DNA of 64,000 bases from a virus, in IMG/VR virus record IMGVR_UViG_3300047489_000453, positions 32,001 to 96,000 of that record. The stretch is one strand, 5' to 3'. The stretch's first letter is position 1. The number at the start of each line of letters is the position of its first letter. The notes under the pieces were generated by a model that was not told the DNA's origin, did not search any database, and saw only the letters and a list, made by a program, of their open reading frames with translations. This document shows, one piece after another, positions 4,364 to 52,262 of the stretch. The position numbers and the translations under genes were made by a program.

Positions 4364-5293
4364 TTACGCAAAGTCAGCTCTAGCGATTGCGTTGGTGTTA
4401 CCAATTGCACCGCCGAGGGTTTCATAGGCGAAAAATTCGAGCATATACGCCTTACGATCGATATAAAGCGTGGTATCCTCTAAAATGAAACTTTTGCCTA
4501 CAAATTTAGGGTCAGCGAACATAAAGATGCTGTCCGTAGGAACCAAATCCTGCTTGATGGAGATAATCCAACGAGCATTCATGAAGTTCTGTTCGGTCCA
4601 ACCGTTCTTGAATACGTCCTGGCTGAAGTCACCGCCCATTTCTTCACGACCGAATTTCATCAGTTCGCGAATAGTAAGGTTGTTGATCAAGCAGGTGCCT
4701 ACTTCAAGGCGGCTGATGGTGCGAGGCAGAATCTTGAAAGCATCTTGAAGGGTATCACGAGTGATACCGCCGTAGATGGTTTCCCACTGTACCAAACCGG
4801 ACTGGGATACAGTAGTGTTAGCTGCGCTGCCCATAGCTGCGTTGCAAGCGGCGATGAACTTGCGATCTTCTTCCGCTAACATGTCCTTTATGGCGTTATC
4901 AGACAGGATCTGCCTGATGTCCATACGATAAGTGCGAAGTTCATCAACGTCCTTCGTGAATCGTGGGGTCACGATTCGGTCAAAGGTAACGCGATACTTC
5001 TGGCCACGAACATAGAGGTTCATAGGCAGAGTAGCGAAGGGAATGGAGATAGCAGCTGGGCTATCAGGTTCCCTTTCGATGATCTTAACAGGCTTATCGG
5101 TATCTACCTGTTGATCGAGATCGTCGTTGCTTACCTGGATTGGAGGAAGAATTCGTCGATAGAATCCTTCTTCACGCATCCTGTACCTGGTGTAGTCGAC
5201 CACTGCGTCGAGTGCTCGCTTTTCCATTCCAGGGGTTTCAAGGTAGCTGAGGAATGTTTCGTTCATCAGCTTAGTGTCGTTGTCGTAAGACAT
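4364..5293 (-). CDS. Probable major capsid protein (HK97/encapsulin-like fold)
   Basis: 309 aa; AAGGAGG RBS; RMREEGFYRRILP and long spine-like helix AIKDMLAEEDRKF; canonical protease-scaffold-capsid gene order. Confidence 0.65.
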   Translation of the reverse strand: MSYDNDTKLMNETFLSYLETPGMEKRALDAVVDYTRYRMREEGFYRRILPPIQVSNDDLDQQVDTDKPVKIIEREPDSPAAISIPFATLPMNLYVRGQKYRVTFDRIVTPRFTKDVDELRTYRMDIRQILSDNAIKDMLAEEDRKFIAACNAAMGSAANTTVSQSGLVQWETIYGGITRDTLQDAFKILPRTISRLEVGTCLINNLTIRELMKFGREEMGGDFSQDVFKNGWTEQNFMNARWIISIKQDLVPTDSIFMFADPKFVGKSFILEDTTLYIDRKAYMLEFFAYETLGGAIGNTNAIARADFA

Positions 5294-12799: not shown

Positions 12800-15178
12800 T
12801 TAGTCTGCTTCCAAGCTGATGCCTTCATCAGGATAGGCATCGATAGTTTTTTGTTTTAAGAACAACATAAGGTCGCCTAGCTGCTCAAATGAATTTCTTA
12901 GGCTGTCTTCTAGCTCTGGAAGGTCTTTCTTTCCGTATCTGTCTTCAAACTTGTCTTTATGCCAGTAGAAACTAAACAGTATACGGCCTATTTTATCAAG
13001 ACCTTTCATAAGATCGCCAAGATGATTATCTACCATCGAATCGTCTCTTACAGACTTTACTAAAGATCCGATCATAGAGGTATCAAATACATCTTTCTGG
13101 CCTGCTGTGGCCGCGTTGTATCCGATAGCCATAGTCTTAGGATCAGGAATTTTAGGGTCATACACCGCCGAGTTAGCCTGTAAAGACTGGCTGGACATGG
13201 CTGGAAGAGCTTGCTGCAGAGGATAAGTTGACTTAACGCTGCCAAGCAAGGTCTGCTCCATGCCAGTAGGTTCTACTGGGAATGCCGGGGAAGCGGTTCC
13301 GCCGATCATACTAGGATCGATATTGTCACCCGGCGCTGCTGACTTAATAAGGTCACCAGCATCCTCTTTGATCGGTTTATGTACTCTGTATTCGGCTACT
13401 TTATTAGCCTTAGCTTCGTCCAAAATAATCCTGGCTTGTTTTTCTGTTAACGATACGTCTCTGACTAGGTGAATTAGAGCGCTTTGAGGATCTAATACCC
13501 TGCCGTTAACGTTTACTTCTGACCCAGTATGTCTGACGTTCAAGGACGCTGTTTTTTGATAAATAGCGTGCTGAAGGTCTGTGAGACTTCCTGGAGTTAT
13601 AGAGCCGTTGCCGCAGCAATCATCGTCGTTAAGTTTAATTACCTTAAAATTACCTGGAATATAGAGTTCGCCCTTTATAGCTTTAATTCTTACTCCGGGC
13701 TTATCGGTAACGTAAAGCTTTTTGCCGCCGCCAATAACGCTAAGGTTATCCATATTAAAGTCGCCGTAGGACCCTTTTCGAATCACATGCGGCAAATAGC
13801 TAGGTTTTGACTGAGAAGCCCAGTCATAATACTTAACTCTAAAATTGTTTGTTCCGTCAGAGTTTCCTTCGACTTTTAGAACTTCAAAAGGCACTGAGGC
13901 ATCGCCGCTTTCGCTTACTGCCATGTATACGTTGCCTTTGGTCATAGATTTGATTTCAGACAGGCCTTCAAAGAACTTTTCATAGCTTTGGCCGCTAGTC
14001 TTACTCTCTGGAGCATCTTGCCCCTTATCCCTTGGAGGACGGGTAAAAAGGTTACCTGGGTGACTGTTTATCCAGTTCTTTTCGCCTTCGTAGCTTACAA
14101 CAGTGGCAAATTCCTGTCTGCCTGTTGGGCCGTGCGGCATTAGGAATATTACTGTTTTGAGCATAGAGAAAGGCGAAATAAGAAGATCGTATACGCCAGT
14201 AGTTGGAGGGTTTTCAAGGCTGGTAGGCGCCTGAACTCTATAAGCTATAGCGGTGTCGTCTTTTGTTCTAGCGTCTTGAAAAATTACTCCATCAGTCAAA
14301 AGCTTTTGCTTATCAGCTTCTGGAGAGTCCATTACGCCGTCTGAGGAGGCCGAAAAACTTCTTACTACGATCGTAAGGGCTTTCTTTTCTACATGGCCTA
14401 CAGATGCTGCGCCGTCTAATACGCCTGGGTTCTTAAGTGACTTAAACGTATCTACCGCTTTCTTAAGGAAGTCTTTTCCATAGAACTTATCAATAGCCTC
14501 TGCAATTTTAGGAAACTGCTGGCATGTTTCGATAAGGGCGGTTACCGCTTTTTTATAGCCTTCTTTGCCTCTATTAGCCTCTTTCTTAAAGAAAGAATCT
14601 AAAGTAGTAAGGTTTTTATACTTGGCGTCGTGTTCAGGGTTAGAGCAGGCGTGTTTTGCAAGCTGCCTAAGGCCTTCTCTCATTTCTTTTAAATCGTCAT
14701 TAACAGACGCAAACTTGGCCGGAGGACGGCTAAATGCCTGGAGATCTGGGGAAAGAAATCCAAGTCGAGCCATATTCTGATCGGTTTTCTTGCCTAGGCT
14801 GGCTGGTTTTCTTCGCAGAATATAATTGAGCCAGTTTTCTTTGAGGGGGACAAACTGATCTTGGTCTTTAAGATATAAAAGCTCATGGCCTTTAAGGTCA
14901 CCATTAGAAAAGAAGACAGGAGCATACAGCCACTGTGATCCTACCTTAAACCCAAATATGCCTACAGCCTTGGTGTTATCTTCGTTTCTTTCGAGAAGTT
15001 CAAATCCAACTTCGTAATCTAAAAGGCCTGGCGCTTTATCTTTTAGATAAGCGTGAGCCAGATTGCTAAACGATTGTTCAAATTGCGTATCATTACCTAA
15101 ATCACTTCCGCCCGCTTTTTTTACGAATCCATTAATTGGAGGAAGCTCTACTAAAAACTTATCAGTGTTCTGGCTCAT
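12800..15178 (-). CDS. Large hypothetical morphogenesis-region protein
   Basis: 792 aa; globular N- and C-terminal parts separated by K-x-A motifs (VKKAG, AKFAS, EKKAL, QKTAS, IKSAA). Confidence 0.7.
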   Translation of the reverse strand: MSQNTDKFLVELPPINGFVKKAGGSDLGNDTQFEQSFSNLAHAYLKDKAPGLLDYEVGFELLERNEDNTKAVGIFGFKVGSQWLYAPVFFSNGDLKGHELLYLKDQDQFVPLKENWLNYILRRKPASLGKKTDQNMARLGFLSPDLQAFSRPPAKFASVNDDLKEMREGLRQLAKHACSNPEHDAKYKNLTTLDSFFKKEANRGKEGYKKAVTALIETCQQFPKIAEAIDKFYGKDFLKKAVDTFKSLKNPGVLDGAASVGHVEKKALTIVVRSFSASSDGVMDSPEADKQKLLTDGVIFQDARTKDDTAIAYRVQAPTSLENPPTTGVYDLLISPFSMLKTVIFLMPHGPTGRQEFATVVSYEGEKNWINSHPGNLFTRPPRDKGQDAPESKTSGQSYEKFFEGLSEIKSMTKGNVYMAVSESGDASVPFEVLKVEGNSDGTNNFRVKYYDWASQSKPSYLPHVIRKGSYGDFNMDNLSVIGGGKKLYVTDKPGVRIKAIKGELYIPGNFKVIKLNDDDCCGNGSITPGSLTDLQHAIYQKTASLNVRHTGSEVNVNGRVLDPQSALIHLVRDVSLTEKQARIILDEAKANKVAEYRVHKPIKEDAGDLIKSAAPGDNIDPSMIGGTASPAFPVEPTGMEQTLLGSVKSTYPLQQALPAMSSQSLQANSAVYDPKIPDPKTMAIGYNAATAGQKDVFDTSMIGSLVKSVRDDSMVDNHLGDLMKGLDKIGRILFSFYWHKDKFEDRYGKKDLPELEDSLRNSFEQLGDLMLFLKQKTIDAYPDEGISLEAD

Positions 15179-15260
15179 ATTCGCAACCTTCCGTGGTTTG
15201 GAAAATGTTATAGAGCTATTATGCTCTTAATTTTTCAATTGCGCAACGATTACGGCGACT

Positions 15261-15680
15261 TTAAGAGTCATAATCCGTAATATTTACATTTAGCAGGCTT
15301 CTAGCCGCTACTCCGCTCTTTATAAAATTTAGGAAGTTTTGAAGATTCCTAATTTCAGCCATCTTAGCATAATTAGTTTGTGAATTAATAGTGGAGACAT
15401 CTCCACGATTAATTTGTTGTACAGGAGAAGGAGGCTGAATGACTGGCTGGGGATTATTAGATTGGGTCGTCACTATAGGCTGACTCTGTACTCTAGGCTG
15501 TATATTAGGGCTAGTATCTACTGACTTTACAGCCACTTCAGAAGGCGGCTTACCCTTAGTGGCCTCGTTTACTTGCAAAGGTTTTAGTGTTTCTTTTTCT
15601 GTTTTAGACTGGGACCCTTCAAGTTTTAAAGACTTGTCGGCCTGCTTCCAGGTAGCCCACTTTTCTAAAAAGGTTTGCAT
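15261..15680 (-). CDS. Hypothetical Pro/Gln-rich protein
   Basis: 139 aa, start overlaps the stop of the beta' C-half gene; EKWAT/WKQAD leader. Confidence 0.55.
   Translation of the reverse strand: MQTFLEKWATWKQADKSLKLEGSQSKTEKETLKPLQVNEATKGKPPSEVAVKSVDTSPNIQPRVQSQPIVTTQSNNPQPVIQPPSPVQQINRGDVSTINSQTNYAKMAEIRNLQNFLNFIKSGVAARSLLNVNITDYDS
15391..15406. repeat. Dispersed 16-bp palindrome copy
   Basis: GTGGAGACATCTCCAC, 1 mismatch, inside CDS. Confidence 0.75.
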
Positions 15681-17590
15681 TATAGTACGCCCTTGCTCTG
15701 TTCAGGCACTTTGCCAAGCTCATTAACGTCAAATCCTTTTACCTTACCTTTACGACCAAAATCAACAGCTTTTGCCAATGATGGCACATATGATGTGCCA
15801 GCTTCGTCGCTTATGGCGCCTCTATGCACAGCTTGTAAGGTAGATTTTCTTAGATTGCTCCCCAGCATTCTAGTCATCCAGTCAGGGTCATGCTGAAGAT
15901 TTTCTAGACCTCTGACAAAATGGGGCTCAAACGGTGGAGGTTCTTTGTGGACTGTAATATCTTTTATGCCAAATTTTTCAAACTCTCTAACCATAGACGG
16001 CCTTATAGGCGTGCCTATCGTATAGTGAAGAACAGGTTTTTCCAAATAGCTTCCTACTCCTTGATTAGGCTTAACCGTTCTACTGTCTTGTCTAGGCTCC
16101 CATACGCTTTCAACTGAGTCATAAGGTATGACGTCGTCAGGGTTAAACTGATTATATTCGTCATTCATGATGACATGGTTGATAAGGCCTTTGGACATTA
16201 CCTCTATATTTCTGCGATGGCCGTACATGCCGGCCTCTTTCATTGCAGTCCTAAAAGAATTAACGAATTGGCGACGGCCCTCGCCTATTCCCCTAAACTT
16301 AGTAAATTGAGCAGGGTTGGGAATACCAGAGGATATGACATCTCCGGCTTCTACAGTATCGCCTACCTTTACTGAAGCGGAAGCCTCAGGGCTGACGTAA
16401 TGTTCTACGCCGTCTATAGTTACAAATACACCACCAGTAGGCGCAGGTTTAATATTTGATACTCTACCGTCCTTTTGTGCATGAGTAGCCCAGAATGGAG
16501 ACTGCTTAGGGATTTGCACTAATTGATTGAGGTGCCTAAAACCAGACACAGACGCGGACGCTCCTGCGATACCGCCAGTGTGTTTAGAGTTTAGCTGCCC
16601 TTGAGAAATGGGCTCTGATAAAGCCTGCATAGCAGCAATTCCAACAGCATCTCCTATAGGTGCAAGACCTGATCTTTCTCTAATTCCTAGGTCCCTTGCA
16701 TATAGCCCTCCACCGGCAGCTCCCGACGCTATTGGGCTCCTGATGACTATTCTGTCTATGTTCTTTGATTTTAAATCTTTAAGAACTCTAGGCGTGAGCA
16801 CAGTGTTTCTTCCGTAACCTCCGGCAGGCATTCCTAATAGTGCGCCTTCGTTTTCCTCGTCATCCGTGTCTACCGGCATCCCCCTGTTCTCTATTGATTT
16901 AGGGTCGTCAGCATCTTCGCCAGTAACTATCATCCTGTGGCCGATTTGATTTAATTGCTTGGAAAAGAAGCCTGCGTCCATAACTGAGAACTTGGTATCT
17001 GTGATACCTTTTCGTGTACCAAAGCTCCCTGCGAAGTATTCAGACGGAGTTAGTCCTTTTGAATAAGAGTTAAATACTGGTATTGGTATTTCTCTATCGT
17101 GATGATCGGTATATAAAATGTCGCCGCCTCTAAGGCTTTTGAGGTTTTTAGGCTTACCTCTGGACCCGGACTGAATTTGCCTAGCTAACTGATTTCCTTC
17201 AGCGCTAGCTTCATCAAATATACCTTTTTCTAGATCTTTTTGAGAATTAGCTAAGATAGCTACAATTTGTTTATTCTTATCGTCATCAGTGAGCTGTCTA
17301 TTTGAAATAATTGAGTCTATAGCTGCTTTAAGTTTTAGTTTTCTGTCGTGATAAAATTTTGATTCCCTAAGATCGCTAAGACCAAAAGAGAAGCCACCAG
17401 AGTTATATGACACGTCTCTACCGACGTCCATAAGCCCTTTGGCTATCTGTCTGTATTTGTCTGGGTGATTTTCTGCTACCGTCTGAAGAATACCTTGAAC
17501 TGCTTTGGTATCTAGAACTCTAGAGTAGTCCTTAAGCTCGTCAGGAAGCGCGTCATTAACCATGATTTGACCTATAGTGGTCTTTAACAT
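15680..17590 (-). CDS. rpoC: DNA-directed RNA polymerase beta' subunit, C-terminal half
   Basis: TTIGQ, SGSRG, bridge helix GLTPSEYF..GTRKGITDT...AGFFSKQL, trigger loop VGIAAMQALSEPISQGQLNSKHTGG, HRRNIEV. Confidence 0.92.
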   Translation of the reverse strand: MLKTTIGQIMVNDALPDELKDYSRVLDTKAVQGILQTVAENHPDKYRQIAKGLMDVGRDVSYNSGGFSFGLSDLRESKFYHDRKLKLKAAIDSIISNRQLTDDDKNKQIVAILANSQKDLEKGIFDEASAEGNQLARQIQSGSRGKPKNLKSLRGGDILYTDHHDREIPIPVFNSYSKGLTPSEYFAGSFGTRKGITDTKFSVMDAGFFSKQLNQIGHRMIVTGEDADDPKSIENRGMPVDTDDEENEGALLGMPAGGYGRNTVLTPRVLKDLKSKNIDRIVIRSPIASGAAGGGLYARDLGIRERSGLAPIGDAVGIAAMQALSEPISQGQLNSKHTGGIAGASASVSGFRHLNQLVQIPKQSPFWATHAQKDGRVSNIKPAPTGGVFVTIDGVEHYVSPEASASVKVGDTVEAGDVISSGIPNPAQFTKFRGIGEGRRQFVNSFRTAMKEAGMYGHRRNIEVMSKGLINHVIMNDEYNQFNPDDVIPYDSVESVWEPRQDSRTVKPNQGVGSYLEKPVLHYTIGTPIRPSMVREFEKFGIKDITVHKEPPPFEPHFVRGLENLQHDPDWMTRMLGSNLRKSTLQAVHRGAISDEAGTSYVPSLAKAVDFGRKGKVKGFDVNELGKVPEQSKGVL

Positions 17591-17599
17591 GGTACTCTC

Positions 17600-17812
17600 C
17601 TATAAATTAATCTTCCTGATAACTGGTTTATCCAGCCCGTGATCTTCTAGAACTTTTAAAAAATCATCATCGCCTGCAGTGGCGCAGACGATGATGTTTT
17701 TATCATTCTCAATAAAAACAGCTATAGGATTATTCATATTGTCGTAAACCACCAGCCTGGTAGCGGGCGACAGCCTATGATTTAAAAGATTATTATGATA
17801 ATCCAATAACAT
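17600..17812 (-). CDS. Hypothetical protein
   Basis: 70 aa, start overlaps upstream stop. Confidence 0.5.
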   Translation of the reverse strand: MLLDYHNNLLNHRLSPATRLVVYDNMNNPIAVFIENDKNIIVCATAGDDDFLKVLEDHGLDKPVIRKINL

Positions 17813-18456
17813 TATTTTTTCTTTCTAAGCAAGTACATCATTCCAGCGGCTTTCTCAGCTACAGAGATTTTAGCCGACTTAATTGGAGAGGTGTCTTGCG
17901 AAGAAGCGCTCGTAGCATCTTCACCATCTTTAGCTGGCGACGATACGTCATCTAGAATGTCATGAGGAAGGTTAAGCCCTAACGATGAATACAGGTGTGT
18001 CAAAAGCTTCTGTATTCTATGCATGTACAGCTCAACTTGCCCATTATCGTTTTTCTTTGAGGCTTTACCGGTGCCTTTGGCCCCGGCTAAAGCTTTTTGA
18101 AGCTCTTCCTGTACCACAGTTCTAATTTGCTCAGTAGGATCAGCTGGAGGGGATGCTCCGGCCGCAGCTGGATCCATAGGAGGCGCTCCGCCCATCATAG
18201 CTGGGTCCATAGGAGGCGCTCCGCCCATCATGGAGGGGTCCATAGGAGGTGCGCCGCCTGGAGGCATGCCGCCCATCATGGAGGGGTCCATAGGGGCTCC
18301 ACCTGGAGGCATGCCCCCCATCATAGATGGATCCATAGGAGGCGCTCCGCCCGGAGGCATACCGCCCATAGCTGCTGGGTCGCCGCCTTGGGTAGGAACA
18401 AAAGCACTTTTAATGCTATTTTTTGCTGATTGAAGCAGGAATCTATTAACTGCCAT
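17812..18456 (-). CDS. Pro/Met/Gly repeat protein
   Basis: 214 aa; GGAG RBS; IKSAF leader then (GGAPPMDPSMMGGMPP)n repeats. Confidence 0.7.
   Translation of the reverse strand: MAVNRFLLQSAKNSIKSAFVPTQGGDPAAMGGMPPGGAPPMDPSMMGGMPPGGAPMDPSMMGGMPPGGAPPMDPSMMGGAPPMDPAMMGGAPPMDPAAAGASPPADPTEQIRTVVQEELQKALAGAKGTGKASKKNDNGQVELYMHRIQKLLTHLYSSLGLNLPHDILDDVSSPAKDGEDATSASSQDTSPIKSAKISVAEKAAGMMYLLRKKK
18170..18390. repeat. Coding imperfect tandem repeat
   Basis: Repeated GGGTCCATAGGAGGCGCTCCGCCC(ATCAT) units encoding GGAPPMDP. Confidence 0.8.
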
Positions 18457-18500
18457 TGTATTTTATCTCCGTTTTAAGCCCCAGTATATGCATCGCGTGT

Positions 18501-19397
18501 TTATATTTTTCCAGAATCGTCAGTATGCATTTTGTCGAATAGTATTGGGCTATCTCCAATATTATCAGAAGTATGACTAAAGTCAGGTTGCACAAGTTGT
18601 TTATATGGATCGTGCAATCCAGTAGAACCTGGAAACTTACCAGTATAAGGATTAGGCCTTACAGGTATAAGAGGAGCAGAGTTTTTAGCTGCTTCTCTTT
18701 CTGCTAACATTTTGCCTAAAATAGAGCTTAAACTTCCAGCTCCTGCACCTATTACACCGCCGCCCAGCGCGCCTGTTGCAAATCTGTTTAACATCCCTTT
18801 TCTTTTGCTGCCTAAAGCTAAGTTTCCTACGCCGCCTACACCGGCTCCAATTAGAGAACCCATAATAGCTTTTTGAACTCTTGGGTCTAATTGTCCATAA
18901 GCCGACATAATATCAGATACCGCAGCACTTTTATTAAAGGCTCTGAGAACATGATTAGCGTTATTAAAGCCTGATTCTTTTATGCTCATTTCTTCAACTC
19001 CTAAAGTATCTGCGCTTCCGCATTTCCATTTTCTTAAAGACTTGTTAATCCTGCTGTCCGGGTCATTAGCCGTCTCAGATGAAGTAAGTTTTGACTTCAT
19101 GCCTTTCATTCTGGCGCAGAAGCTATCTTTGCGCGCCCCGCCTTCCGGCTGAGGCCTCTTTATATCATGCCCTTGCGCCTTTAAGCTAGCCCTGCCTTTT
19201 TCGTTTAATCCGCCTTCTGGATTCTTACCTTCGGCTTTTTGCCAGGCGGCTGTGCCTTTTTTCTCTGATATTGATGTTACTTTCTTCCAGTTTTTTGCAT
19301 CTGGATAGTCTTTATCGCCTGGCTTGGCTGGAGCCTCGCCTCTCTCTTTTTTAGCGTGAATATTAGCCCACAACCCCGGCTTAGACTTATCTGCCAT
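18501..19397 (-). CDS. Mosaic protein: small basic phage domains (DUF6321-like) plus glycine-zipper segments
   Basis: AWQKAEGKNPEGGLNEKGRAS...SFCARMKG...DPDSRINKSLRKWKC recalled as a widespread phage domain; after NKSAA, GSLIGAGVGGVG and GALGGGVIGAGAG. Confidence 0.6.
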   Translation of the reverse strand: MADKSKPGLWANIHAKKERGEAPAKPGDKDYPDAKNWKKVTSISEKKGTAAWQKAEGKNPEGGLNEKGRASLKAQGHDIKRPQPEGGARKDSFCARMKGMKSKLTSSETANDPDSRINKSLRKWKCGSADTLGVEEMSIKESGFNNANHVLRAFNKSAAVSDIMSAYGQLDPRVQKAIMGSLIGAGVGGVGNLALGSKRKGMLNRFATGALGGGVIGAGAGSLSSILGKMLAEREAAKNSAPLIPVRPNPYTGKFPGSTGLHDPYKQLVQPDFSHTSDNIGDSPILFDKMHTDDSGKI

Positions 19398-19415
19398 TTT
19401 TAACTCCTTTTAAAA

Positions 19416-19510
19416 CCAGTTAAAAGCCTTCATCTACTCTGTCGCACTTCCGCTTCGAGTGATGATTAGTCCCAGGAAAGTGCTAAAACGGGCCCTAGGC
19501 TTTCAACTGG
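19416..19510 (-). other. Structured intergenic RNA element candidate
   Basis: 14-bp closing stem CCAGTTGAAAGCCT/AGGCTTTTAACTGG (G-U pair only on minus strand) enclosing an 8-bp stem GCACTTTC/GGAAGTGC. Confidence 0.4.
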
Positions 19511-19521
19511 ATCTATAGATA

Positions 19522-21009
19522 CTAACGCTTAGAGCCTATCTCTTTAAGCAAATTCAAGAACTTTTCATTAAGTTCTTGCTTCTTTTGTGCTGCTGCCATC
19601 AAGTATTCGTCAGTGGCAGGATCGCCTTCAGGTTTAAACCCTATTAGTCCTAGCAGCGATTTTAGCCTACTTGGAGCCGTTCTCGCCAGATATCTTTCTA
19701 TTTTTACTTTTCTCTCTTCAGGTGGAAGGTGCTCATGGCTGTCAAACCTTAAAGCTCTTCCTTCGCTTTGCGACCCTCTGCTGGTATTCCAGTGCGGGTC
19801 CAGTAGCTGCACTAGCTTTGTGCCTTTAAACGATAGCCCCTCTGTTCCGGCTGGGCCTAGCAGAGCCACCTTTAACTTATCAGCATTAAAATCATCTACT
19901 AGTTTTTTCCTTTCCTTGTCGCTTAACGCCCCTGTAAAGGAGGCGGCAGGTATACCAGCTTTATTTAATGCAGCCAGGTAAGGAGACAAGCCGGCGTCAA
20001 CAAAATTAGAAAATACTAACGCCTTGCCTCTTGGGTCTGTCTTAAGAAGGGTATTAAGCCTATTAAACGCCTCGTTTAGTTTTGGAGACTCTTTGAACGC
20101 CTTCATAGGGTCGGCATTATCTTTCATAAATGGAAGAGTGGATAAGCCTACTTGTCTTGGTCCTGTTAAAAAGCTTACTAACTTTTTTGACTCCTCATCT
20201 GTGAGAGGGTAGTTAAGTTGTAGCTTCCATTTAAGAAGAGTCGGCAGCTTTCCAAACAATTGATTATATAAATCTGTCTGGTCTCTGCTCATCTCTACTA
20301 TTACGTCTTCTCTGTTAATGTCAGCTCTTGGTTTTAAAGGAGCAAAGTAATCTACCTTACCTTTTAATGATTTTTTTAGCTCTTCCACGTTTTTTAATTC
20401 TGGGTCGTGGGCTTTTACATTTAGAAGCAGCTTATACCATGGGGCCTTTTCTGGTTTGCTTACGTACCTTTCAGAGAAGGCCTCAGGCGTCATTTCGCTA
20501 TCGGTAAGTACGTTATAAGGTACGGCAAAGTCGGCTGGGCTATTAACTATGGGGGTTCCAGTAAGAAGAACAGCTTGTCTAGCCTTCCTTGCTGCCTCTA
20601 AGAGATTCTTAGTCTGGGCTGACTCCATATTTCTAAATCTATGAGCCTCGTCTACTAATAAAGATTCGGGATGCTCTATAGGCTTGCCCATAGCCAGTCC
20701 CGTATGGCTCATTATTGATGACGGGGTAGCAGTTGCAGGATCTATAAATTTTTCCTGCTCTTTTTTAAGATTAGTTCTAAGAGCTGCCGGCACTATGGCC
20801 GTGTAAGGAATTTTAGTAGCATCAGCGGCCGCCAGACCGCTTAAAGTCTTGCCCGACCCAAGACTATGATAGAGCAGCATTCTAGCTCTATCTTTTTTAT
20901 CTATCTGTTCTTGAACCTTGTCTACAACGGCCTGCTGATGCGGCTGTAGATTTACGCCTTGAGCTAAGTCGGCCTGCTTACAAATTGTGGAGACGTCGAC
21001 ACTACTCAC
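19522..21009 (-). CDS. SF2 (SNF2/DEAH-like) helicase
   Basis: Q-motif LQPHQ, Walker A LGSGKT, DEAH, LTGTP, EGLSF, QSEGRALR. Confidence 0.9.
   Translation of the reverse strand: MSSVDVSTICKQADLAQGVNLQPHQQAVVDKVQEQIDKKDRARMLLYHSLGSGKTLSGLAAADATKIPYTAIVPAALRTNLKKEQEKFIDPATATPSSIMSHTGLAMGKPIEHPESLLVDEAHRFRNMESAQTKNLLEAARKARQAVLLTGTPIVNSPADFAVPYNVLTDSEMTPEAFSERYVSKPEKAPWYKLLLNVKAHDPELKNVEELKKSLKGKVDYFAPLKPRADINREDVIVEMSRDQTDLYNQLFGKLPTLLKWKLQLNYPLTDEESKKLVSFLTGPRQVGLSTLPFMKDNADPMKAFKESPKLNEAFNRLNTLLKTDPRGKALVFSNFVDAGLSPYLAALNKAGIPAASFTGALSDKERKKLVDDFNADKLKVALLGPAGTEGLSFKGTKLVQLLDPHWNTSRGSQSEGRALRFDSHEHLPPEERKVKIERYLARTAPSRLKSLLGLIGFKPEGDPATDEYLMAAAQKKQELNEKFLNLLKEIGSKR
20987..21002. repeat. Dispersed 16-bp palindrome copy
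   Basis: GTGGAGACGTCGACAC, 2 mismatches, at 5' end of the helicase CDS. Confidence 0.65.
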
Positions 21010-24000
21010 TTTCCTGTCTCCATTATCACGACTCTATCGTTAATATCTATGTCGCCAGATCTGTAAGCTCTTATAGCGTCAGCTTTGGTCTTAAAGTATT
21101 TCTCTGGTCTTTTTGAAGGAGCAGCGGATGCAGCGTATAGCCCGCCCTGATACTCGTTAGCTGGAAGCTGATGAACTTTAAATGACTTAGCTGCCATAAG
21201 GTTACGACTTGGCAACATCTTTTCCATCGCGTCTTTTACAGCCTCGTCCGTGCTTGGAACGTGATAGTTCATGGCATCGCCATCAAAGTCGGCATTAAAA
21301 CCTTTTACTATTATTGGAGACACCTGTAGCGTGCTACCTTTTACCAGCTTAGGCTTAAACGCCATTACACCATATCTGTGAAGAATAGGCGCCCTTGTCA
21401 CTATTACGGGCCTTGCGTCCATCTCGGCAACCATGGCGTCTCTGGCCATGTTGTCTTTCTTATCAATCATGTCGGCAGCTTTAAACCTATCAACGCCTCT
21501 ACGAATAAGACGCCTCATTATAAACGGTTTATATACTGACCAGGCTCTATCCTCTGGAAGGCCTACTTCGTCCATGTCCAGATCAGGGTTAGGAGTAATT
21601 GCCGCCCTTCCTACCATATCAACTTGAGAGCCTAAAAGTTTTCTTTGAACAACGCCAAACTTAGGATTATCTCCGAATACTTGCTTTAATATTCCTTTTA
21701 CGTTTTTCTTTTCAAGCTTTGGATTAACAGAATCTCCAAGGCCAGTTATAGCCTTAAATGAGTCATAAAGAGCTAGTCTGTGTTGAGACAAGTCAGAAAA
21801 TGACTTTGAAGCTTCTCTGAACTCATTATTAACGTCGATAAGTTCCTTGTATAGGTAGTTAGCATCTCCGACCATCGGTAGACCGTTGTTAGACATTATA
21901 CTTACAGGTCTAAACACTGGAGGCAAAACGGGTACTTTTGTAAGCATCCATTCTGATGGGTGTATCTTAAGGTTCTTAGCGCTCTTAAGATAACTAAGCT
22001 TTCTTACAGCGTCGTCCCTGTACGACTTTTTACCGGACGCAATTATAGCTCTGGCTTTGGCTATTTCTTGATCCACGTTCATGGATTTGAGCGCATTAGC
22101 TATGGCTGAGGGCCCAGAGGCACCTCCAAGCTGCTCTTTTCCAGCTAGTACGTCTCTAAATTTATTCTCAGTTAGACCTAGAACTCTTCTTATAGGGTCT
22201 TCCATAACAGGGTTAGGCATTGCCTCGTGAAGCTTTATATGGCTCCACATGTTGCCGCCATGCCCGCCTGTAAGAGATACGTCAAATAGACCGCCACCAG
22301 CAGGCTCAAGACCTTTGCCCCAGTCTACTGTATCTGATTTTTTGATTTCCCTATTTCCTGACAGGGAATCTATATCCTTGTCAGTAAGGGCCATAAGTTG
22401 TGTCTTAGTTCCACTTCTTACAGGGTTTATTCCAGACGCCTGGAGCTGAGCCATGAACTTTCTGTAAGTCAGTGGGACTCTAGGTATTGGAAGAGGTCCG
22501 CCTGTCATAAAGGACGCCCAGTAATCTTCGTTCTTCTGGCCCCTTATAGCGCCGGCATCCCTAAGTACTTCGTGAGCGCCGTGTGACAATAAAGCGTTAA
22601 CGTCCATTAATGATACGCGCTTGCTTCCTTCTTCACCGCCCTTGGCCGGAGTCTCTTCAGAGGTATATCCGCCGCTGCCTATACCTCTACCCTGGCCTTT
22701 AGACTCCGAGGTATGGTGTAGCTTTAAAAAGAACCTGTTTCCTGTGAATATGCCTTTTATTTTTCTTCCAGTCTCCGGGTCTTCAATATCTTCCTTGTCG
22801 CTCATGTTATTTTTTTTAAGTTCATTAAGAGCAAACTCGGTAAGATCCTGGATGTTTTCAAAATCTTTTACCGCGTACCTTTTTCCAGTCTTTGCAGCTA
22901 TCTTTCCTAGAGCAGCCTCAATCATCTGACTTGGGTTTGTTCTAGATATAACGCCAAGGGGATTAAGAAGAATGTCAAAAGGATTGCCCTCTGAATCTCT
23001 AGGCATTTTTGAATCTGGAATAACGGCGGATATAACTCCCTTATCGCCATATCTACCTGACAGCTTGTCGCCTTCTTTTGAACTGCTAAGGCTTTTTACA
23101 GTTACTGATACTCCCTTATTTGTCTTGGTAACATCTGTAACTACGCCATCGTTTTCGTGGTCCCAGGTAATAGATGCATTACTAAACCCAGTCTTTGACC
23201 TGCCTATCTGTTGATTGTGTGACCTTGAAAGAATTTTGGCCTGTAAAAATAAAGGGTCTCCCTTTCTTACTACAGTGCCTGGCTTTATGGCGCCGTCATC
23301 GTCCAGAGAGTCAACTACCTGTCTAGAATAGTCTGAAGGAAATAATGTTAGAAATCCTCTTTTGCCTTCTTTAGTTTCCTTGCCAAATTCAGCTTGGTGC
23401 TGATACATGTGCTCTGACGTTAATTTTTTAGCGGCGCTTTCAGATATAACTACAGCGTCTTCAAAGTTATAGCCTTTATAAGGAATGTAGGCGGTTCTAA
23501 GATTAATGCCCAGAGCAGCTGTACCTTTTTCATCGGTATAGTTTGACCTTGCTAACAGCCCGCCTTTTTTTACCATATCGCCAACTTTTACAGTTGGAGT
23601 GTTGTGTAAAAAGGTTTTTCTATTAAAAGGTAAATTGTTGTATATCTCTTGCTTGTAAAGCTTTCCGTCTGTTCCTCTAATTCTAACCTCGTCGTTGTCG
23701 GCATAAATTACTTGGCCATCAACATCAGAGTAGGCTGCGCCCATATGCTTGCCGTATTCCTCTTCATATGATTTATCCTCTTCGCCAAGCTTACCGGACT
23801 GCACAAGTGGGGCCTCTGGATTTTTCAGAGGCAGAGCCTGGGTAAGCATTCTTGAACCCATCACTACTCTTTGGCCAAATGTAGCGCTCTTAAGCGGAAC
23901 CATGTTGGCAAGGTGATTAAAGGCGCTGTCCATTCTAGGCAGTTCGAAGTCAACATCTTGTCTATCAACATATTTAATCTTACCGCCGGCCATAGCGGCT

Positions 24001-25457
24001 ACTTTAGTCTTTGATTTATCTATGAGCTGGTTTGGAAACGCTATTACTGACTGGGCCATCTCTTGCGGAGTTTTCCAAACTTCATCACCTGTTCTTACAT
24101 CTCTAAACTTAGAATAAACTTTTCCGTCTACGCCTTTGCGGGCGTTTGTAGCTATTCTGCTATCAATACCCACCTTAAGTGACTCTGGCGTAAGCAGAGG
24201 ATCTATGTAGCCAAAGTGAGATGGCTGAACGTTTCTAGCTTCTTCTGGAACAGCTTGCAAGGAAGGAATGCCGCCTTCGCCGAGACGACTTACTCTGGTG
24301 ATTTGATTTAATAAATCAGCTGGATTTACTTCTTCAAGAGGCTGGCCCAAGCCGCTTTTCATAATAGCGGAATTAACCTGTGAAGATAAAAATCCAGGAG
24401 CAAATGGCGATAAGTTTTGTTTAAAGCTGGCCTTCCACAGCAGAGGGCGCATAACTTTATAAGCAGCCCTAATTCTTTCAGTAAATAAATCTTCAGGGCC
24501 ATACAGATTCTGATAGGCCATGGCGTCTCTGTCGTCTGGATCTGCCTCTTTTCTATGCACAGCTAATATTCTTTTTGTGGCTGCCAACACTGAATCAACT
24601 GACAAGTTAGAGAAGCCTTTACCTAAAGTTGCAGCCGTAACTTCTGGATCAAGCTCCATTTTTGTCATGGCAGCTGCTACGGCTTTAGCTTTACTTTCTT
24701 CGGTCATGGCCTCGCCAGGCTGTAGTCTTCCTATCTTTTTGAAGATCTTGTCTAGGTATTGAGGATCATTTTTAACTGCGTTTGAAGCGTATATCTCATT
24801 TCCCCACGCTTCCCTAATCTGCTTATCGCTAGCGCCCATAGCTTTAAGAACTGGCATAAGAGGCACATTAGACTGGCCAAATGAAATATTAAACACGCCC
24901 TTTTCTGGGCTTAAAGAGTATCTATGAGATAGCCCCTTGCCAGGCATTACGTTTACGTGGCTTTCAACGTCGCCGCTATTTGTTATTCTTGTAAATACAC
25001 CCGGCCTTAGCCTCATCTGGTTAGCCAAGGTATACTCAGTGCCGTTTACTATATAAGTTCCTCTATCTGTTAGGTAGGGAATCTTAGCTATAGTTGTCCT
25101 CTTGCTTTCAAGCACCTTGCCCGTACTATTATCGATTAGATTTATTGTACCTTTGAGGCCGCGACTGAGAGTTTCGCCTTTTAATATGGCTTCTTTTTGA
25201 GTCTTTATAGGCTTTACCTCTTCAGGGTCGCCCCAGCCTACATCTGTAATTGATAGAGTGTGTCTCTGGTTACTGAGAGGCTGTAACGACGAGGCTGCTG
25301 TCTGAACTCCGTTAAATATTGCAGCTCTAGTAGCCTTTATGTCATCAAACCCTCTCATGGAAGGGGCTTGCATAGAAGGAACTAAGCCGACCATTTTATT
25401 GGCCGGCTTAGGAATGAGGCCGCTGCTATCTGGCTGATCGGGAAGTACGCCGGCCAT
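21006..25457 (-). CDS. rpoB: DNA-directed RNA polymerase beta subunit fused to N-terminal half of beta'
   Basis: beta motifs GTYIVNGTE, RVSRLGEGG, TPES, GYNFEDA, GDKLSGRYGDKGVIS, LKLHH; beta' motifs VPVLPPVFRP, LLGSQVDMVGRAAI, RAPILHR, catalytic NADFDGD. Confidence 0.95.
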   Translation of the reverse strand: MAGVLPDQPDSSGLIPKPANKMVGLVPSMQAPSMRGFDDIKATRAAIFNGVQTAASSLQPLSNQRHTLSITDVGWGDPEEVKPIKTQKEAILKGETLSRGLKGTINLIDNSTGKVLESKRTTIAKIPYLTDRGTYIVNGTEYTLANQMRLRPGVFTRITNSGDVESHVNVMPGKGLSHRYSLSPEKGVFNISFGQSNVPLMPVLKAMGASDKQIREAWGNEIYASNAVKNDPQYLDKIFKKIGRLQPGEAMTEESKAKAVAAAMTKMELDPEVTAATLGKGFSNLSVDSVLAATKRILAVHRKEADPDDRDAMAYQNLYGPEDLFTERIRAAYKVMRPLLWKASFKQNLSPFAPGFLSSQVNSAIMKSGLGQPLEEVNPADLLNQITRVSRLGEGGIPSLQAVPEEARNVQPSHFGYIDPLLTPESLKVGIDSRIATNARKGVDGKVYSKFRDVRTGDEVWKTPQEMAQSVIAFPNQLIDKSKTKVAAMAGGKIKYVDRQDVDFELPRMDSAFNHLANMVPLKSATFGQRVVMGSRMLTQALPLKNPEAPLVQSGKLGEEDKSYEEEYGKHMGAAYSDVDGQVIYADNDEVRIRGTDGKLYKQEIYNNLPFNRKTFLHNTPTVKVGDMVKKGGLLARSNYTDEKGTAALGINLRTAYIPYKGYNFEDAVVISESAAKKLTSEHMYQHQAEFGKETKEGKRGFLTLFPSDYSRQVVDSLDDDGAIKPGTVVRKGDPLFLQAKILSRSHNQQIGRSKTGFSNASITWDHENDGVVTDVTKTNKGVSVTVKSLSSSKEGDKLSGRYGDKGVISAVIPDSKMPRDSEGNPFDILLNPLGVISRTNPSQMIEAALGKIAAKTGKRYAVKDFENIQDLTEFALNELKKNNMSDKEDIEDPETGRKIKGIFTGNRFFLKLHHTSESKGQGRGIGSGGYTSEETPAKGGEEGSKRVSLMDVNALLSHGAHEVLRDAGAIRGQKNEDYWASFMTGGPLPIPRVPLTYRKFMAQLQASGINPVRSGTKTQLMALTDKDIDSLSGNREIKKSDTVDWGKGLEPAGGGLFDVSLTGGHGGNMWSHIKLHEAMPNPVMEDPIRRVLGLTENKFRDVLAGKEQLGGASGPSAIANALKSMNVDQEIAKARAIIASGKKSYRDDAVRKLSYLKSAKNLKIHPSEWMLTKVPVLPPVFRPVSIMSNNGLPMVGDANYLYKELIDVNNEFREASKSFSDLSQHRLALYDSFKAITGLGDSVNPKLEKKNVKGILKQVFGDNPKFGVVQRKLLGSQVDMVGRAAITPNPDLDMDEVGLPEDRAWSVYKPFIMRRLIRRGVDRFKAADMIDKKDNMARDAMVAEMDARPVIVTRAPILHRYGVMAFKPKLVKGSTLQVSPIIVKGFNADFDGDAMNYHVPSTDEAVKDAMEKMLPSRNLMAAKSFKVHQLPANEYQGGLYAASAAPSKRPEKYFKTKADAIRAYRSGDIDINDRVVIMETGK

Positions 25458-25459
25458 GC

Positions 25460-26560
25460 TTATCTCCCTAGATGTGCGATAGGATTATTATTTTCTTGTT
25501 TTTTAGCACTAGGAATAGGCGTAGGAGTGACGTAAATAGGAGACCCTTGCTCCTGCTGCCTTTGCAGAAACTCAGCTAAATACCTATTAGATTCGTACGG
25601 CTCTGTATCTTCTGCTTTAGCTCTTCTTAGACCATGGTATGTGCCTATTCCACCACCAATGAGCCCTAATGCCCCAGTCAAGCCTAAAGCGGCTCTTCCT
25701 TGTTGAGTACCTAGAAGAAAGTTATTAGTTCTGCCAGCTACGTCCATAAGAGCCTTAATCCCTTTAGACAGGCCTGTGCTAGCTAGGTCCCATGGCGACA
25801 TTCCATTTCTCGCTATATCATCTATTTCTTGCTGGCTCTTTCCGGCTAGGCCGAGCCGCCCAGCCCACCGTTCAAGCGTAGGAGCGCCTGCTAAAGGGTC
25901 ATTAGACACATCTACGACCCCTTTACCGCCAGCAGCTTTCTCTATGTACAATTCTGATAGTTCGTCTAAATCATTAATTATCTCTTCAGAGACGGAAGCA
26001 GCTTTTGCTCGAACGGCCTCAACTGGATTATTTAACTTACTGGCACTAGTCTCCACTAGAGTCTTATTAAACGCCTCTCTAGCTATGTCTTGGTCATCTT
26101 GTACGTCTTTTTTTCGTTTATTTTTTAAAAGTTGGCTTAAGGTCAAGTAGCTAAGTAGTCCTGGTCCGCCCATAGCAGTGACGACGCCAGGTAAAAAATA
26201 TGGATTAGTAAGATTCTTCCAGTCGTATAAGTTAGAGACTGGAGCAGATGCAGTGTCTCCTGCCTTCTTTTCATTTTTAGGTTTAACTTCGTAGTCTTCC
26301 CCTGGACTAAAGTCTCTTAATTTATCAGATCTTTTGTCTGGTTTTCTCCCCATTTCTTTGGAAAGGTCGACTCCTTCTGGCTCAGAATCCATTCCAACAA
26401 CAGGAAGATACGCAGAATACCCTAAAGATTCCGGTAAAACAGCTGGGGTGGACCCGCGCAGTAAATGCTTAATAGCAGGTATACTAGACCCTACTCCAAG
26501 AGATATAAGGCCAAGCTTTTTAAGATAATCCCACTGCTGCGGCGTATACATGTCAGACAT
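25460..26560 (-). CDS. Hypothetical protein with hydrophobic Gly-rich segments
   Basis: 366 aa; EKKAG/EKAAG motifs; ALGLTGALGLIGGGIG. Confidence 0.65.
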   Translation of the reverse strand: MSDMYTPQQWDYLKKLGLISLGVGSSIPAIKHLLRGSTPAVLPESLGYSAYLPVVGMDSEPEGVDLSKEMGRKPDKRSDKLRDFSPGEDYEVKPKNEKKAGDTASAPVSNLYDWKNLTNPYFLPGVVTAMGGPGLLSYLTLSQLLKNKRKKDVQDDQDIAREAFNKTLVETSASKLNNPVEAVRAKAASVSEEIINDLDELSELYIEKAAGGKGVVDVSNDPLAGAPTLERWAGRLGLAGKSQQEIDDIARNGMSPWDLASTGLSKGIKALMDVAGRTNNFLLGTQQGRAALGLTGALGLIGGGIGTYHGLRRAKAEDTEPYESNRYLAEFLQRQQEQGSPIYVTPTPIPSAKKQENNNPIAHLGR

Positions 26561-47983: not shown

Positions 47984-48009
47984 GTATCACCTGTAAGTAT
48001 TGTATAATT

Positions 48010-49751: not shown

Positions 49752-49755
49752 TTTT

Positions 49756-50622: not shown

Positions 50623-50626
50623 TGCA

Positions 50627-52261: not shown

Positions 52262-52262
52262 T

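What the first reader, a model, noticed from the sequence alone, without database searches (positions are those of the whole stretch)
15680..25457. Cysteine-free, re-partitioned multisubunit RNA polymerase embedded among virion genes: candidate injected virion RNAP
Seen: beta is fused directly to the N-half of beta' (junction near 22390-22440; catalytic NADFDGD near 21274-21296). The beta' C-half (bridge helix, trigger loop) is a separate gene 3.4 kb downstream. Reading both translations I find no Cys in 1483+636 aa. The N-terminal beta' Zn-binding domain is deleted (GGGLFDVSLTGGHGGNMWSHIKL) and the second Zn-site Cys are replaced (VTGEDAD, RSPIASG..LYARDLG). NrdJ and AsnB in the same window contain many Cys. 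Known: the phage N4 virion RNAP lacks Cys and is injected; phiKZ-like phages split beta and beta' into several chains, without this beta-beta' fusion as far as I recall. Inference: a bacterial-like two-chain RNAP packaged in the head and ejected unfolded through an oxidising envelope. No alpha, omega or sigma gene is recognisable in the window.
Basis: partly seen in the sequence, partly recalled or inferred. Interest (0 to 1): 0.92.

Follow-up and report, generated by a model that had tools for sequence, protein, structure and literature searches.

The report
Cysteine-free two-chain phage RNA polymerase
This uncultured large phage builds a bacterial-type RNA polymerase from only two proteins that contain no cysteine and no zinc sites, most likely because the enzyme travels inside the virus particle and is injected with the DNA.

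Summary
Window 21006-25457(-) encodes all of beta joined to the front half of beta' (1483 aa). Window 15680-17590(-) encodes the back half of beta' (636 aa). Neither has a cysteine, and both beta' zinc sites are gone. This is not chance. 96 of 120 and 110 of 120 listed relatives are also Cys-free, whereas conserved neighbouring virion genes carry 0.9-2.1% Cys. The second zinc site was lost once: basal relatives, including cultured Salmonella phage Arash, keep exactly those four Cys. In Arash the two chains, a sigma factor and the linked helicase are among the most abundant virion proteins by mass spectrometry (PMC10585845). Our genome has the Cys-free sigma homologue outside the window. Packaging is therefore likely. 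Ejection as the reason for the cysteine loss is inferred. It matches the published rule for N4-like phages, but phiKZ's virion polymerase has 16 Cys. The lineage (mReC), Arash's virion proteome and the N4 rule are published; the fused/split, zinc-free architecture is not, in my searches. This scan found the same family earlier on other genomes. Verdict: new variant of a known kind.

The parts
21006..25457 (-). Gene for the fused chain: complete beta followed by the beta' N-half (1483 aa, 0 Cys). Junction at 22386-22439, excised zinc-ribbon site at 22230-22298, catalytic NADFDGD at 21276-21296.
15680..17590 (-). Gene for the beta' C-half (636 aa, 0 Cys). Bridge helix at 16952-17017, trigger loop at 16571-16636, former second zinc site at 16907-16927 and 16685-16741.
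19522..21009 (-). SNF2/DEAD-type helicase (495 aa, 1 Cys) whose start overlaps the stop of the fused chain. It is the homologue of Arash Gp217, a virion protein by MS.
   Evidence: PMC10585845
18501..19397 (-). 298-aa protein with DUF6321 and a glycine-rich hydrophobic stretch (2 Cys). It lies between the two RNAP genes. Role unknown.
17812..18456 (-). 214-aa Cys-free Met/Gly/Pro-repeat protein. Homologues lie between the two RNAP genes in 24 of 79 related loci.
17600..17812 (-). Small ORF (70 aa) directly upstream of the beta' C-half gene. A homologous 70-90 aa ORF sits at the same place in 56 of 80 related loci. Candidate accessory subunit, untested.
15261..15680 (-). 139-aa Cys-free, low-complexity ORF abutting the beta' C-half stop. 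Many relatives instead carry a long Cys-free tail fused to the beta' C-half.
25460..26560 (-). 366-aa Cys-free ORF immediately upstream of the fused chain. No family match.
12800..15178 (-). 792-aa weak homologue of Arash structural protein Gp218 (4 Cys). Used as a neighbour control with normal cysteine content in relatives.
7776..9215 (-). 479-aa homologue of Arash structural protein Gp222 (9 Cys). Neighbour control.
4364..5293 (-). Major capsid protein homologue (Arash Gp226; PHROG major head protein).

Best explanation
The two genes encode the catalytic core of a bacterial-type multisubunit RNA polymerase of a roughly 200-kb tailed phage of the RNAP-encoding ('mReC'-like) lineage. One chain carries all of beta joined, through about 7 residues, to beta' residues ~15-553. 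The other carries the rest of beta'. The core has no alpha or omega. I infer that it is directed by a phage sigma-70-family factor. I also infer that core, sigma and an SNF2-type helicase are packed into the head and enter the cell with the DNA, so early genes are transcribed without host polymerase. Complete relatives have only one RNAP gene set, so newly made enzyme probably also serves later transcription, perhaps with the second sigma. The complete loss of cysteine, including both structural zinc sites, is best read as the selection already described for ejected proteins of N4-like phages. Shown: architecture, intact catalytic motifs, conserved and specific cysteine loss, single loss of the second zinc site, synteny with head genes. 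From a paper on a 32%-identical relative: presence in virions. Inferred: packaging in this phage, ejection, and the reason for the cysteine loss.
For: Architecture and motifs. Models: pLDDT 70.9 and 77.5; Foldseek top hits are cyanobacterial gamma / plastid RpoC1 and Thermus beta' (TMq 0.63-0.66). Conserved Cys loss: fused chain 96 of 120 relatives with 0 Cys, and all 11 with 4 or more Cys are 1814-2195 aa forms with insertions. Beta' C-half: 110 of 120. Sigma: 48 of 48 phage homologues. Specificity in 80 IMG/VR loci: fused chain 0.12% and beta' C-half 0.06% Cys, against 0.92% and 2.09% in two conserved structural neighbours and 1.04% in unassigned ORFs. In this genome portal has 9 Cys and the Gp222-like protein 9. 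Gene order fused chain -> beta' C-half, same strand, in 79 of 79 loci. Synteny with the Arash head module, helicase and virion sigma Gp10. Arash LC-MS: Gp206 3516 spectra (the highest), Gp216 1210, Gp217 1148, Gp10 467 (PMC10585845). One beta gene per genome in 4 complete relatives and Arash. Sigma docking on the beta' clamp helices: ipSAE 0.76 against a best control of 0.00 (3 controls). That mark was reached by 58 of 80 solved and 2 of 110 mismatched pairs; runs agree in at least 91% of contacts; partner pLDDT at least 80; my own alignments were used, so the counts hold only roughly. Sigma-clamp complexes are solved, so this pass shows likeness only. The Cys rule for ejected N4-like proteins is published (PMC11445570, PMC3715699).
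Against: No virion data exist for this phage or its zinc-free clade. The Arash preparation yielded 116 'virion' proteins, including ribonucleotide reductases, a kinase and a primase. Its authors themselves allow carry-over of abundant infection proteins. Arash, D69 and L092-L094 keep four Cys. phiKZ's virion RNAP has 16 Cys in 2614 aa, against 33 in 2850 aa for its non-virion enzyme. So cysteine loss is neither necessary for nor diagnostic of ejection. With one RNAP per genome the enzyme must also work as an ordinary intracellular polymerase. The host, and hence whether there is a periplasm, is unknown for this clade. The record is 67% complete, so a second RNAP, alpha or omega cannot be excluded for this genome itself.
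Confidence: 0.6

Rival explanations
1. It is an ordinary non-virion phage RNAP, made after infection for middle or late genes. Its detection in Arash particles is carry-over. The cysteine loss has another cause, such as resistance to oxidation, avoidance of metal dependence, or a host defence that targets thiols or zinc sites.
For: The Arash MS list holds 116 proteins, many of them clearly non-structural, and the authors mention carry-over. There is only one RNAP set per genome, so it must act intracellularly. phiKZ's virion RNAP tolerates 16 Cys.
Against: Gp206 is the single most detected Arash protein, ahead of the capsid protein. The genes lie inside the head module. The Cys-free set is RNAP, sigma, helicase and low-complexity or glycine-zipper proteins, not metabolic enzymes. 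The second sigma and Arash gp196 do carry Cys.
Confidence: 0.22
2. The cysteine loss is a general property of this phage's virion module or proteome (sulphur economy, extracellular oxidation of any particle protein). It says nothing specific about the polymerase.
For: Many ORFs in 9245-29884 and 47270-57797 are Cys-free or Cys-poor. In Arash, capsid and tail proteins also have 0 Cys.
Against: Portal (9 Cys), the Gp222-like protein (9) and the Gp218-like protein (4) in this genome are not depleted. Across 80 loci the same neighbours carry 0.92% and 2.09% Cys, and only 1 of 77 and 0 of 57 are Cys-free. Two ancient structural zinc sites had to be removed, which implies strong directed selection on this enzyme.
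Confidence: 0.1
3. The contig is cellular, or the two ORFs are a decayed cellular rpoBC remnant.
For: The best PDB sequence matches are bacterial beta and beta'.
Against: It is a virus record with capsid and portal homologues. There are hundreds of full-length intact relatives on 150-235 kb phage contigs. Catalytic motifs are intact. Folds are predicted with confidence.
Confidence: 0.01

Closest known systems
RNAP of Salmonella phage Arash (Gp206 1525 aa + Gp216 606 aa; sigma Gp10; helicase Gp217; OQ632216.1; PMC10585845) and Vibrio phage D69
   Same: Same beta-beta'N fusion and separate beta' C-half. The zinc ribbon is absent (1-2 Cys in the fused chain). The helicase is linked, the sigma is Cys-free, and the genes lie between portal and capsid genes. 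These proteins were found in virions by MS.
   Different: Only about 32% and 24-27% identical. The four-Cys second zinc site is retained. The paper annotates them simply as beta and beta' subunits. In the passages I saw, it does not describe the fusion, the split, the lost zinc ribbon or the cysteine pattern.
mReC lineage: multisubunit-RNAP-encoding Caudovirales (Weinheimer & Aylward 2020, PMC7481178)
   Same: IMG/VR tailed-phage contigs, some over 200 kb, with beta and beta' close enough to cellular ones to align. Described as a deep clade.
   Different: In that text 'virion', 'split', 'cysteine' and 'sigma' occur 0 times, and 'fused'/'fusion' refer only to crAssphage. The list of its 97 contigs is in supplements I could not open, so membership is unverified.
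phiKZ / AR9 virion RNAPs
   Same: Multisubunit RNAP carried in the head and ejected, with no alpha or omega. Beta' is split after the DPBB domain (PMC7598289, PMC8287921).
   Different: phiKZ-type enzymes are 4-5 chains with beta also split. They lack a recognisable sigma and have a second, non-virion enzyme. They are too divergent to appear among the listed hits. The virion enzyme has 16 Cys.
N4-like (Schitoviridae) virion RNAP gp50 / DEV gp71 and ejection proteins gp72-73
   Same: Ejected transcription enzyme with conserved suppression of cysteine. The published explanation is passage through tail and periplasm.
   Different: That is a single-subunit T7-like polymerase of about 3400 aa, an unrelated fold with no zinc sites to lose.
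Cellular precedents: cyanobacterial/plastid gamma + beta' split; Helicobacter/Wolbachia full beta-beta' fusion (the latter recalled, not from a call)
   Same: The split lies after the DPBB domain, and the best structural matches are gamma / RpoC1. The beta C-terminus is joined head-to-tail to the beta' N-terminus.
   Different: The split here lies about 60-70 residues before the cyanobacterial one. Fusion and split are combined in one enzyme. Cellular forms keep their zinc sites, alpha and omega.
Poxvirus virion RNAP with NPH-I (role recalled)
   Same: The linked helicase's best PDB sequence match is vaccinia NPH-I, an SNF2-type ATPase of the packaged polymerase (E 1.7e-11).
   Different: The match covers only the helicase C-domain (residues 326-445). 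It is an analogy, not evidence of shared function.

Membership tests
Bacterial-type multisubunit RNAP core (beta/beta') | Beta domains including the DPBB/Rpb2_6 domain | tested here: met
   PF00562 E 2.3e-54, PF04565, PF04561; bacterial beta E 6e-72
Bacterial-type multisubunit RNAP core (beta/beta') | Beta' catalytic NADFDGD, bridge helix and trigger loop | tested here: met
   NADFDGD at residues 1388-1394. Bridge-helix and trigger-loop stretches located. The model has a 36-residue helix at 182-217.
Bacterial-type multisubunit RNAP core (beta/beta') | Two beta' zinc sites (Cys70/72/85/88 and Cys814/888/895/898 in enterobacterial numbering; their role as ligands is recalled) | tested here: not met
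   0 Cys. The ribbon is excised and the second-site positions are substituted or deleted.
Bacterial-type multisubunit RNAP core (beta/beta') | Alpha dimer and omega subunits | tested here: not met
   No PF01000, PF01193 or PF01192 match in the 136.8-kb record (67% complete); controls were positive in 14 of 14 genomes.
Sigma-70-dependent holoenzyme | A sigma-70-family factor that binds the beta' clamp helices | tested here: inconclusive
   Sigma regions 3 and 4 are found in a 354-aa ORF outside the window; region 2 gives no Pfam hit. The predicted complex scores 0.76 against a control of 0.00, at the clamp helices, but this may reflect likeness to solved complexes.
mReC lineage (PMC7481178) | Tailed-phage contig encoding both beta and beta' homologues detectable with cellular models | tested here: met
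mReC lineage (PMC7481178) | Placement inside the published mReC clade | not testable with these tools
   The contig list and trees are in supplements or external files that I could not open.
Virion (packaged, ejected) RNAP | Protein present inside purified particles | not testable with these tools
   Only by proxy: Arash homologues are top MS hits.
Virion (packaged, ejected) RNAP | Early transcription independent of host RNAP and of new protein synthesis | not testable with these tools
   Needs a cultured phage.
Cysteine-suppressed ejection proteins (N4-like rule) | Near-zero cysteine conserved across homologues while other proteins of the phage are normal | tested here: met
phiKZ-type jumbo-phage RNAPs | Beta and beta' each split into several chains; two paralogous sets; no sigma | tested here: not met
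   Two chains with beta fused. One set in 5 of 5 complete genomes. Sigma-like genes are present.

The most novel reading that the evidence does not exclude
A self-contained, zinc-free, alpha- and omega-less but sigma-dependent RNA polymerase holoenzyme is carried in the capsid. It consists of a 165-kDa fused chain, a 70-kDa chain and a Cys-free sigma, together with an SNF2 ATPase. [quoted passage not shown] The stepwise purge of every cysteine, with the last structural zinc site replaced by an Asp/Gly/Tyr/Asp set in one ancestral event, would be an adaptation to translocation in unfolded form across an oxidising envelope. The variable Cys-free glycine-zipper tails on the beta' C-half in many relatives would be the translocation or membrane-anchoring device, playing the role of the terminal domains of N4 vRNAP.
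Probability: 0.35. Interest if true: 0.8.

Novelty: new variant of a known kind. Interest (0 to 1): 0.62.

Why it matters
Bacterial RNAP is thought to need alpha2 as an assembly platform, omega, and two structural zinc sites in beta'. Here a very large natural family manages with two chains and no zinc, yet still seems to use a sigma factor: more than 150 clusters at 50% identity, on genomes of about 150-235 kb. That offers a minimal, probably easy-to-express model for sigma-dependent transcription. It is also a natural experiment on what the zinc sites are for. If the enzyme is really packaged and ejected, it is a second, independent case of the 'no cysteine in ejected proteins' rule, this time in a cellular-type polymerase. 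A cultured relative (Arash) exists in which the rule, and the puzzle of moving a 165-kDa chain through a tail, can be tested. It would also make Cys-free signatures a usable predictor of ejected cargo in uncultured phages.

Tried and rejected
PHROGs and Pfam on 30 neighbouring ORFs gave almost nothing. The virion nature of the neighbours therefore rests on tblastn synteny with Arash.

Megablast of 15000-26000 against phages found nothing.

I looked for the N-terminal leader motif noted in an earlier finding (A-x-x-F-G-x-x-M-G-K). It occurs in 6 Cys-free ORFs of window 47270-55282 but not in the RNAP chains, sigma or helicase. It gives no packaging signal for the polymerase.

I asked whether the helicase is the counterpart of phiKZ gp75, which follows the non-virion beta' C-half gene. 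BLASTP found no significant similarity (best E 0.14), so I dropped the idea.

I asked whether the C-terminal tails on the beta' C-half of relatives correspond to our 139-aa and 792-aa downstream ORFs. Neither blastp nor phmmer found a match.

The ORFs between the two RNAP genes are not a fixed third subunit. The Met/Gly/Pro-repeat protein is found there in only 24 of 79 loci.

Sigma region 4 searches in 4 complete relatives and Arash were patchy: 2 of 5 hit, and Arash's annotated sigmas were missed. Pfam counts of sigma genes are therefore unreliable in this family.

The listing of cluster members gave no named isolate for 8 NCBI-sourced relatives, so the host of the crown clade stays unknown.

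Searches for a prior description found the mReC paper, the Arash paper, reviews and the N4/DEV cysteine passages. None treats the fusion/split, the zinc loss or the cysteine loss of this family (term look-ups). Supplements were closed and subscription journals are not covered.

I did not build a phylogeny against cellular and phiKZ/AR9 subunits. The only tree is of the beta' C-half, with one long-branched Salmonella outgroup. It used 40 rows. Left out were L093, 33 other rows shorter than 700 aa (every second row was taken), and the 11 forms of 1000 aa or more.
Full report
WHAT IS THERE. The window is bases 32001-96000 of a 136,787-bp IMG/VR virus record judged 67% complete. On the minus strand, ORF 21006-25457 (1483 aa) and ORF 15680-17590 (636 aa) lie 3416 nt apart.

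Pfam finds Rpb2 domains 2, 3 and 6, followed by Rpb1 domains 1 and 2, in the long ORF, and Rpb1 domain 5 in the short one. Against PDB sequences the long ORF matches bacterial beta (E 6e-72, query residues about 50-1037). From residue about 1083 it then matches bacterial beta' and cyanobacterial gamma (gamma residues 186-555 of 624). The short ORF matches beta' from roughly residue 577-660 of various bacteria onward.

A family alignment with Salmonella rpoB/rpoC added shows the details of the join. The beta C-terminus (…ASGINPV) is linked by about seven residues to beta' from about residue 15. The conserved flanks of the beta' zinc ribbon are kept, but the ribbon itself is replaced by a short Gly/His linker.

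The long chain ends near Salmonella beta' residue 553, and the short chain starts near residue 572. The split therefore lies after the DPBB domain, about 60-70 residues before the cyanobacterial gamma/beta' boundary.

AlphaFold models built with family alignments are of fair confidence. Residues 920-1483 of the fused chain give pLDDT 70.9, and the short chain gives 77.5. The regions around both former zinc sites reach about 80-94. The models retrieve cyanobacterial gamma, plastid RpoC1 and Thermus beta' as best structural matches, with TMq 0.63-0.66 for the short chain.

THE CYSTEINE OBSERVATION. Both chains have 0 Cys. ORFs of the window average 0.93% Cys (177 of 18,962 aa), so about 20 Cys would be expected and P(0) is about 3e-9 (my arithmetic). 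Salmonella beta and beta' have 7 and 15 Cys, including positions 70/72/85/88 and 814/888/895/898. In the HMMER alignment to Thermus beta', the four second-site cysteines face Ala, Ser, a three-residue deletion and Leu.

IT IS A CONSERVED RULE, AND IT IS SPECIFIC.
- Fused chain: all 120 listed relatives (53-100% identity) have the fused architecture, and 96 have 0 Cys. Ten have 1 Cys and three have 2. The 11 with 4 or more are all 1814-2195 aa forms, and 10 of those 11 have intein or LAGLIDADG Pfam hits on record.
- Short chain: of 120 relatives (51-100% identity), 110 have 0 Cys. The 8 with 3 or more are 826-1040 aa forms with insertions.
- All-against-all HMMER search: 1031 representatives reach E<=1e-30. 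The best 150 are all at least 46% identical. Within the part aligned to our protein, 101 have 0 Cys and 43 have 1. Among the first 60 rows printed, 11 rows have one aligned Cys, and 10 of those 11 carry 5 or more Cys outside the aligned part, i.e. in insertions.
- 80 IMG/VR loci with 10-kb flanks: the fused chain holds 0.12% Cys and the short chain 0.06%. Two conserved structural neighbours hold 0.92% (1 of 77 Cys-free) and 2.09% (0 of 57 Cys-free). Unassigned ORFs hold 1.04%.
- This genome: portal has 9 Cys, the Gp222-like protein 9 and the capsid protein 2. The ORFs over 300 aa with 0 Cys are the two RNAP chains, a sigma-like protein, a 1520-aa protein, and ORFs of 366, 567, 418 and 321 aa.

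HISTORY OF THE ZINC SITES. Arash Gp216, Vibrio phage D69 0264 and three IMG/VR relatives (L092-L094, 43% identical) have exactly four Cys, at the four second-site columns, and no others. The 67 other IMG/VR short chains under 700 aa, and the window's own, have no Cys at those columns. The commonest replacement pattern is D-G-Y-D. Stray Cys elsewhere sit mostly in the first 23 alignment columns, probably from over-extended start calls.

A maximum-likelihood tree of 40 rows places the lineages in order: (Arash, D69), then (L092, L094), then a clade of 35 zinc-free rows that includes the window (support 96/94). The label needs one change. The rooting rests on one very long Salmonella branch, and about half of the rows were left out.

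The zinc ribbon is missing from all of them: Arash Gp206 has 1 Cys and D69 has 2. So the fusion and the ribbon loss came first, and the second site was the last cysteine cluster to go.

CONTEXT. tblastn of all ORFs of the record against Arash and D69 gives these matches:
- window 4364-5293 = major capsid protein Gp226
- window 7776-9215 = structural protein Gp222
- window 12800-15178 = structural protein Gp218 (weak)
- window 19522-21009 = helicase Gp217 (33% identity, E 8e-61)
- outside the window: portal Gp204, structural proteins Gp13, Gp234 and Gp236, and sigma Gp10

In Arash the RNAP genes lie between the portal and capsid genes.

The helicase is SNF2/DEAD-like. Its best PDB sequence match is vaccinia NPH-I, over the helicase C-domain only.

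The Gp10 homologue (354 aa as called, while relatives are about 275 aa) has sigma regions 3 and 4 and 0 Cys. So do 48 of 48 phage homologues at 25-99% identity. The seven weakest hits of that search are mostly bacterial primary sigmas, and five of them carry 1-2 Cys. A second sigma-like ORF (229 aa) has 1 Cys. In Arash, virion sigma Gp10 has 0 Cys and the other sigma, gp196, has 3.

No alpha or omega homologue was found in the record. Four relatives rated 100% complete, plus Arash, each have a single beta gene; in one of them it is in two adjacent pieces.

In 79 of 79 loci the fused gene lies upstream of the short one on the same strand, never adjacent, with a gap of 0.9-6.5 kb.

IS IT A VIRION ENZYME? 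The direct evidence comes from the Arash paper (PMC10585845; I read the passages returned). LC-MS of particles gave Gp206 the highest spectral count (3516). Gp216 had 1210, Gp217 1148 and Gp10 467, against 1333 for the capsid protein. The same list contains 116 proteins, including ribonucleotide reductases, a kinase and a primase. The authors note that abundant infection proteins might co-purify. This is good but not conclusive evidence, and it concerns a relative only 32% identical.

The indirect evidence is threefold: the position of the genes in the head module, the linkage to a Cys-free sigma, and the cysteine pattern itself. Conserved suppression of cysteine is published for the ejected virion RNAP and ejection proteins of N4-like phages. 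The proposed reason is passage through the tail and the disulfide-forming periplasm (PMC11445570 and PMC3715699, passages).

Against a simple rule, phiKZ's virion RNAP (gp80, gp149, gp178, gp180) has 16 Cys in 2614 aa, while its non-virion enzyme has 33 in 2850 aa. The virion-associated Arash enzyme also keeps a four-Cys zinc site. Cysteine loss is therefore compatible with ejection, and mildly predictive of it, but not required for it.

SIGMA PARTNER. A predicted complex of sigma residues 100-354 with residues 920-1483 of the fused chain scored 0.76, against 0.00 for the best of three controls. That mark was reached by 58 of 80 solved and 2 of 110 mismatched pairs. The runs agree in at least 91% of contacts and the partner's pLDDT is at least 80. 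My own alignments were used, so the counts hold only roughly. The interface is the beta' clamp-helix pair (fragment residues 279-314) with sigma residues 128-167. Sigma-clamp complexes are solved, so this shows that the canonical interface is preserved, not that binding occurs.

COMPARISON WITH WHAT IS KNOWN. The lineage matches the description of the RNAP-encoding Caudovirales of Weinheimer & Aylward (abstract and sections 6-7 read). That text never mentions virion, split, cysteine or sigma, and it uses 'fused' only for crAssphage. Reviews of jumbo-phage RNAPs describe the phiKZ-type enzymes as multiply split, sigma-less and present in two sets, and mention mReC only in passing. The jumbo-phage review of 2026 matched my terms only in its reference list. 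I found no paper that describes the beta-beta'N fusion with a separate beta' C-half, the loss of both zinc sites, or the cysteine-free state of this family.

This scan had already met the same family on other genomes. Follow-up agents reached the same main conclusions. I read those notes after my own analysis. What I add here:
- the neighbour-gene control
- the single loss of the second zinc site, with basal four-Cys lineages
- the phiKZ counter-example
- the sigma survey and sigma docking
- the one-RNAP-per-genome count
- the small ORF upstream of the short chain

VERDICT. Packaging is likely (about 0.7 by my estimate). Ejection as the cause of the cysteine purge is plausible but unproven. 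I rate this a new variant of known kinds, namely phage multisubunit RNAPs and Cys-free ejected proteins, with interest 0.62.

Noticed in passing
window 17600-17812 (-): A 70-aa ORF ends 10 nt before the beta' C-half start. jackhmmer finds a homologous 70-90 aa ORF at the same spot in 56 of 80 related loci (40 of 56 Cys-free). It has no Pfam family. It could be a small polymerase accessory subunit.
   Followed up: partly
relatives of window 15680-17590 (e.g. P0245, P0251, P0288, P0330): Many representatives of the beta' C-half carry an extra 400-1100 aa C-terminal tail. The tail is highly variable, rich in Pro/Ala/Gly/Gln, contains glycine-zipper hydrophobic stretches, and is also Cys-free. It is not similar to our downstream ORFs.
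   Followed up: partly
relatives P0023, P0027, P0040, P0163, P0213 and others; L022, L092-L094: Inteins or LAGLIDADG insertions interrupt both RNAP chains in many relatives, and these supply nearly all the cysteines seen in the family.
   Followed up: partly
window 17812-18456 (-): A 214-aa Cys-free protein with 21 Met, made of repeats of a Met/Gly/Pro-rich unit, lies between the RNAP genes. Homologues are present in 24 of 79 loci.
   Followed up: partly
window 47270-55282 (-): Six Cys-free ORFs share an N-terminal (one internal) motif of the form A/E-x-x-F-G-x-x-M-G-K, followed by unrelated low-complexity or glycine-zipper sequence. The motif is absent from the RNAP chains.
   Followed up: partly
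same record, outside the window (record 18631-23193, minus strand): A 1520-aa ORF with 0 Cys and no family match lies in the same module as the Cys-free sigma. It sits at the position that Arash Gp4 occupies (1097 aa, 0 Cys, second most detected virion protein).
   Followed up: no
window 19522-21009 (-): The RNAP-linked SNF2-type helicase has vaccinia NPH-I as its best PDB sequence match (E 1.7e-11, helicase C-domain only). It shows no significant similarity to phiKZ gp75.
   Followed up: partly
window 2182-3444 (-), 29910-32165 (+), 45393-47216 (-): Auxiliary genes: a glycosyltransferase-methyltransferase fusion, a class II (B12-type) ribonucleotide reductase with an ATP-cone, and an asparagine synthase. 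All have normal cysteine content.
   Followed up: no
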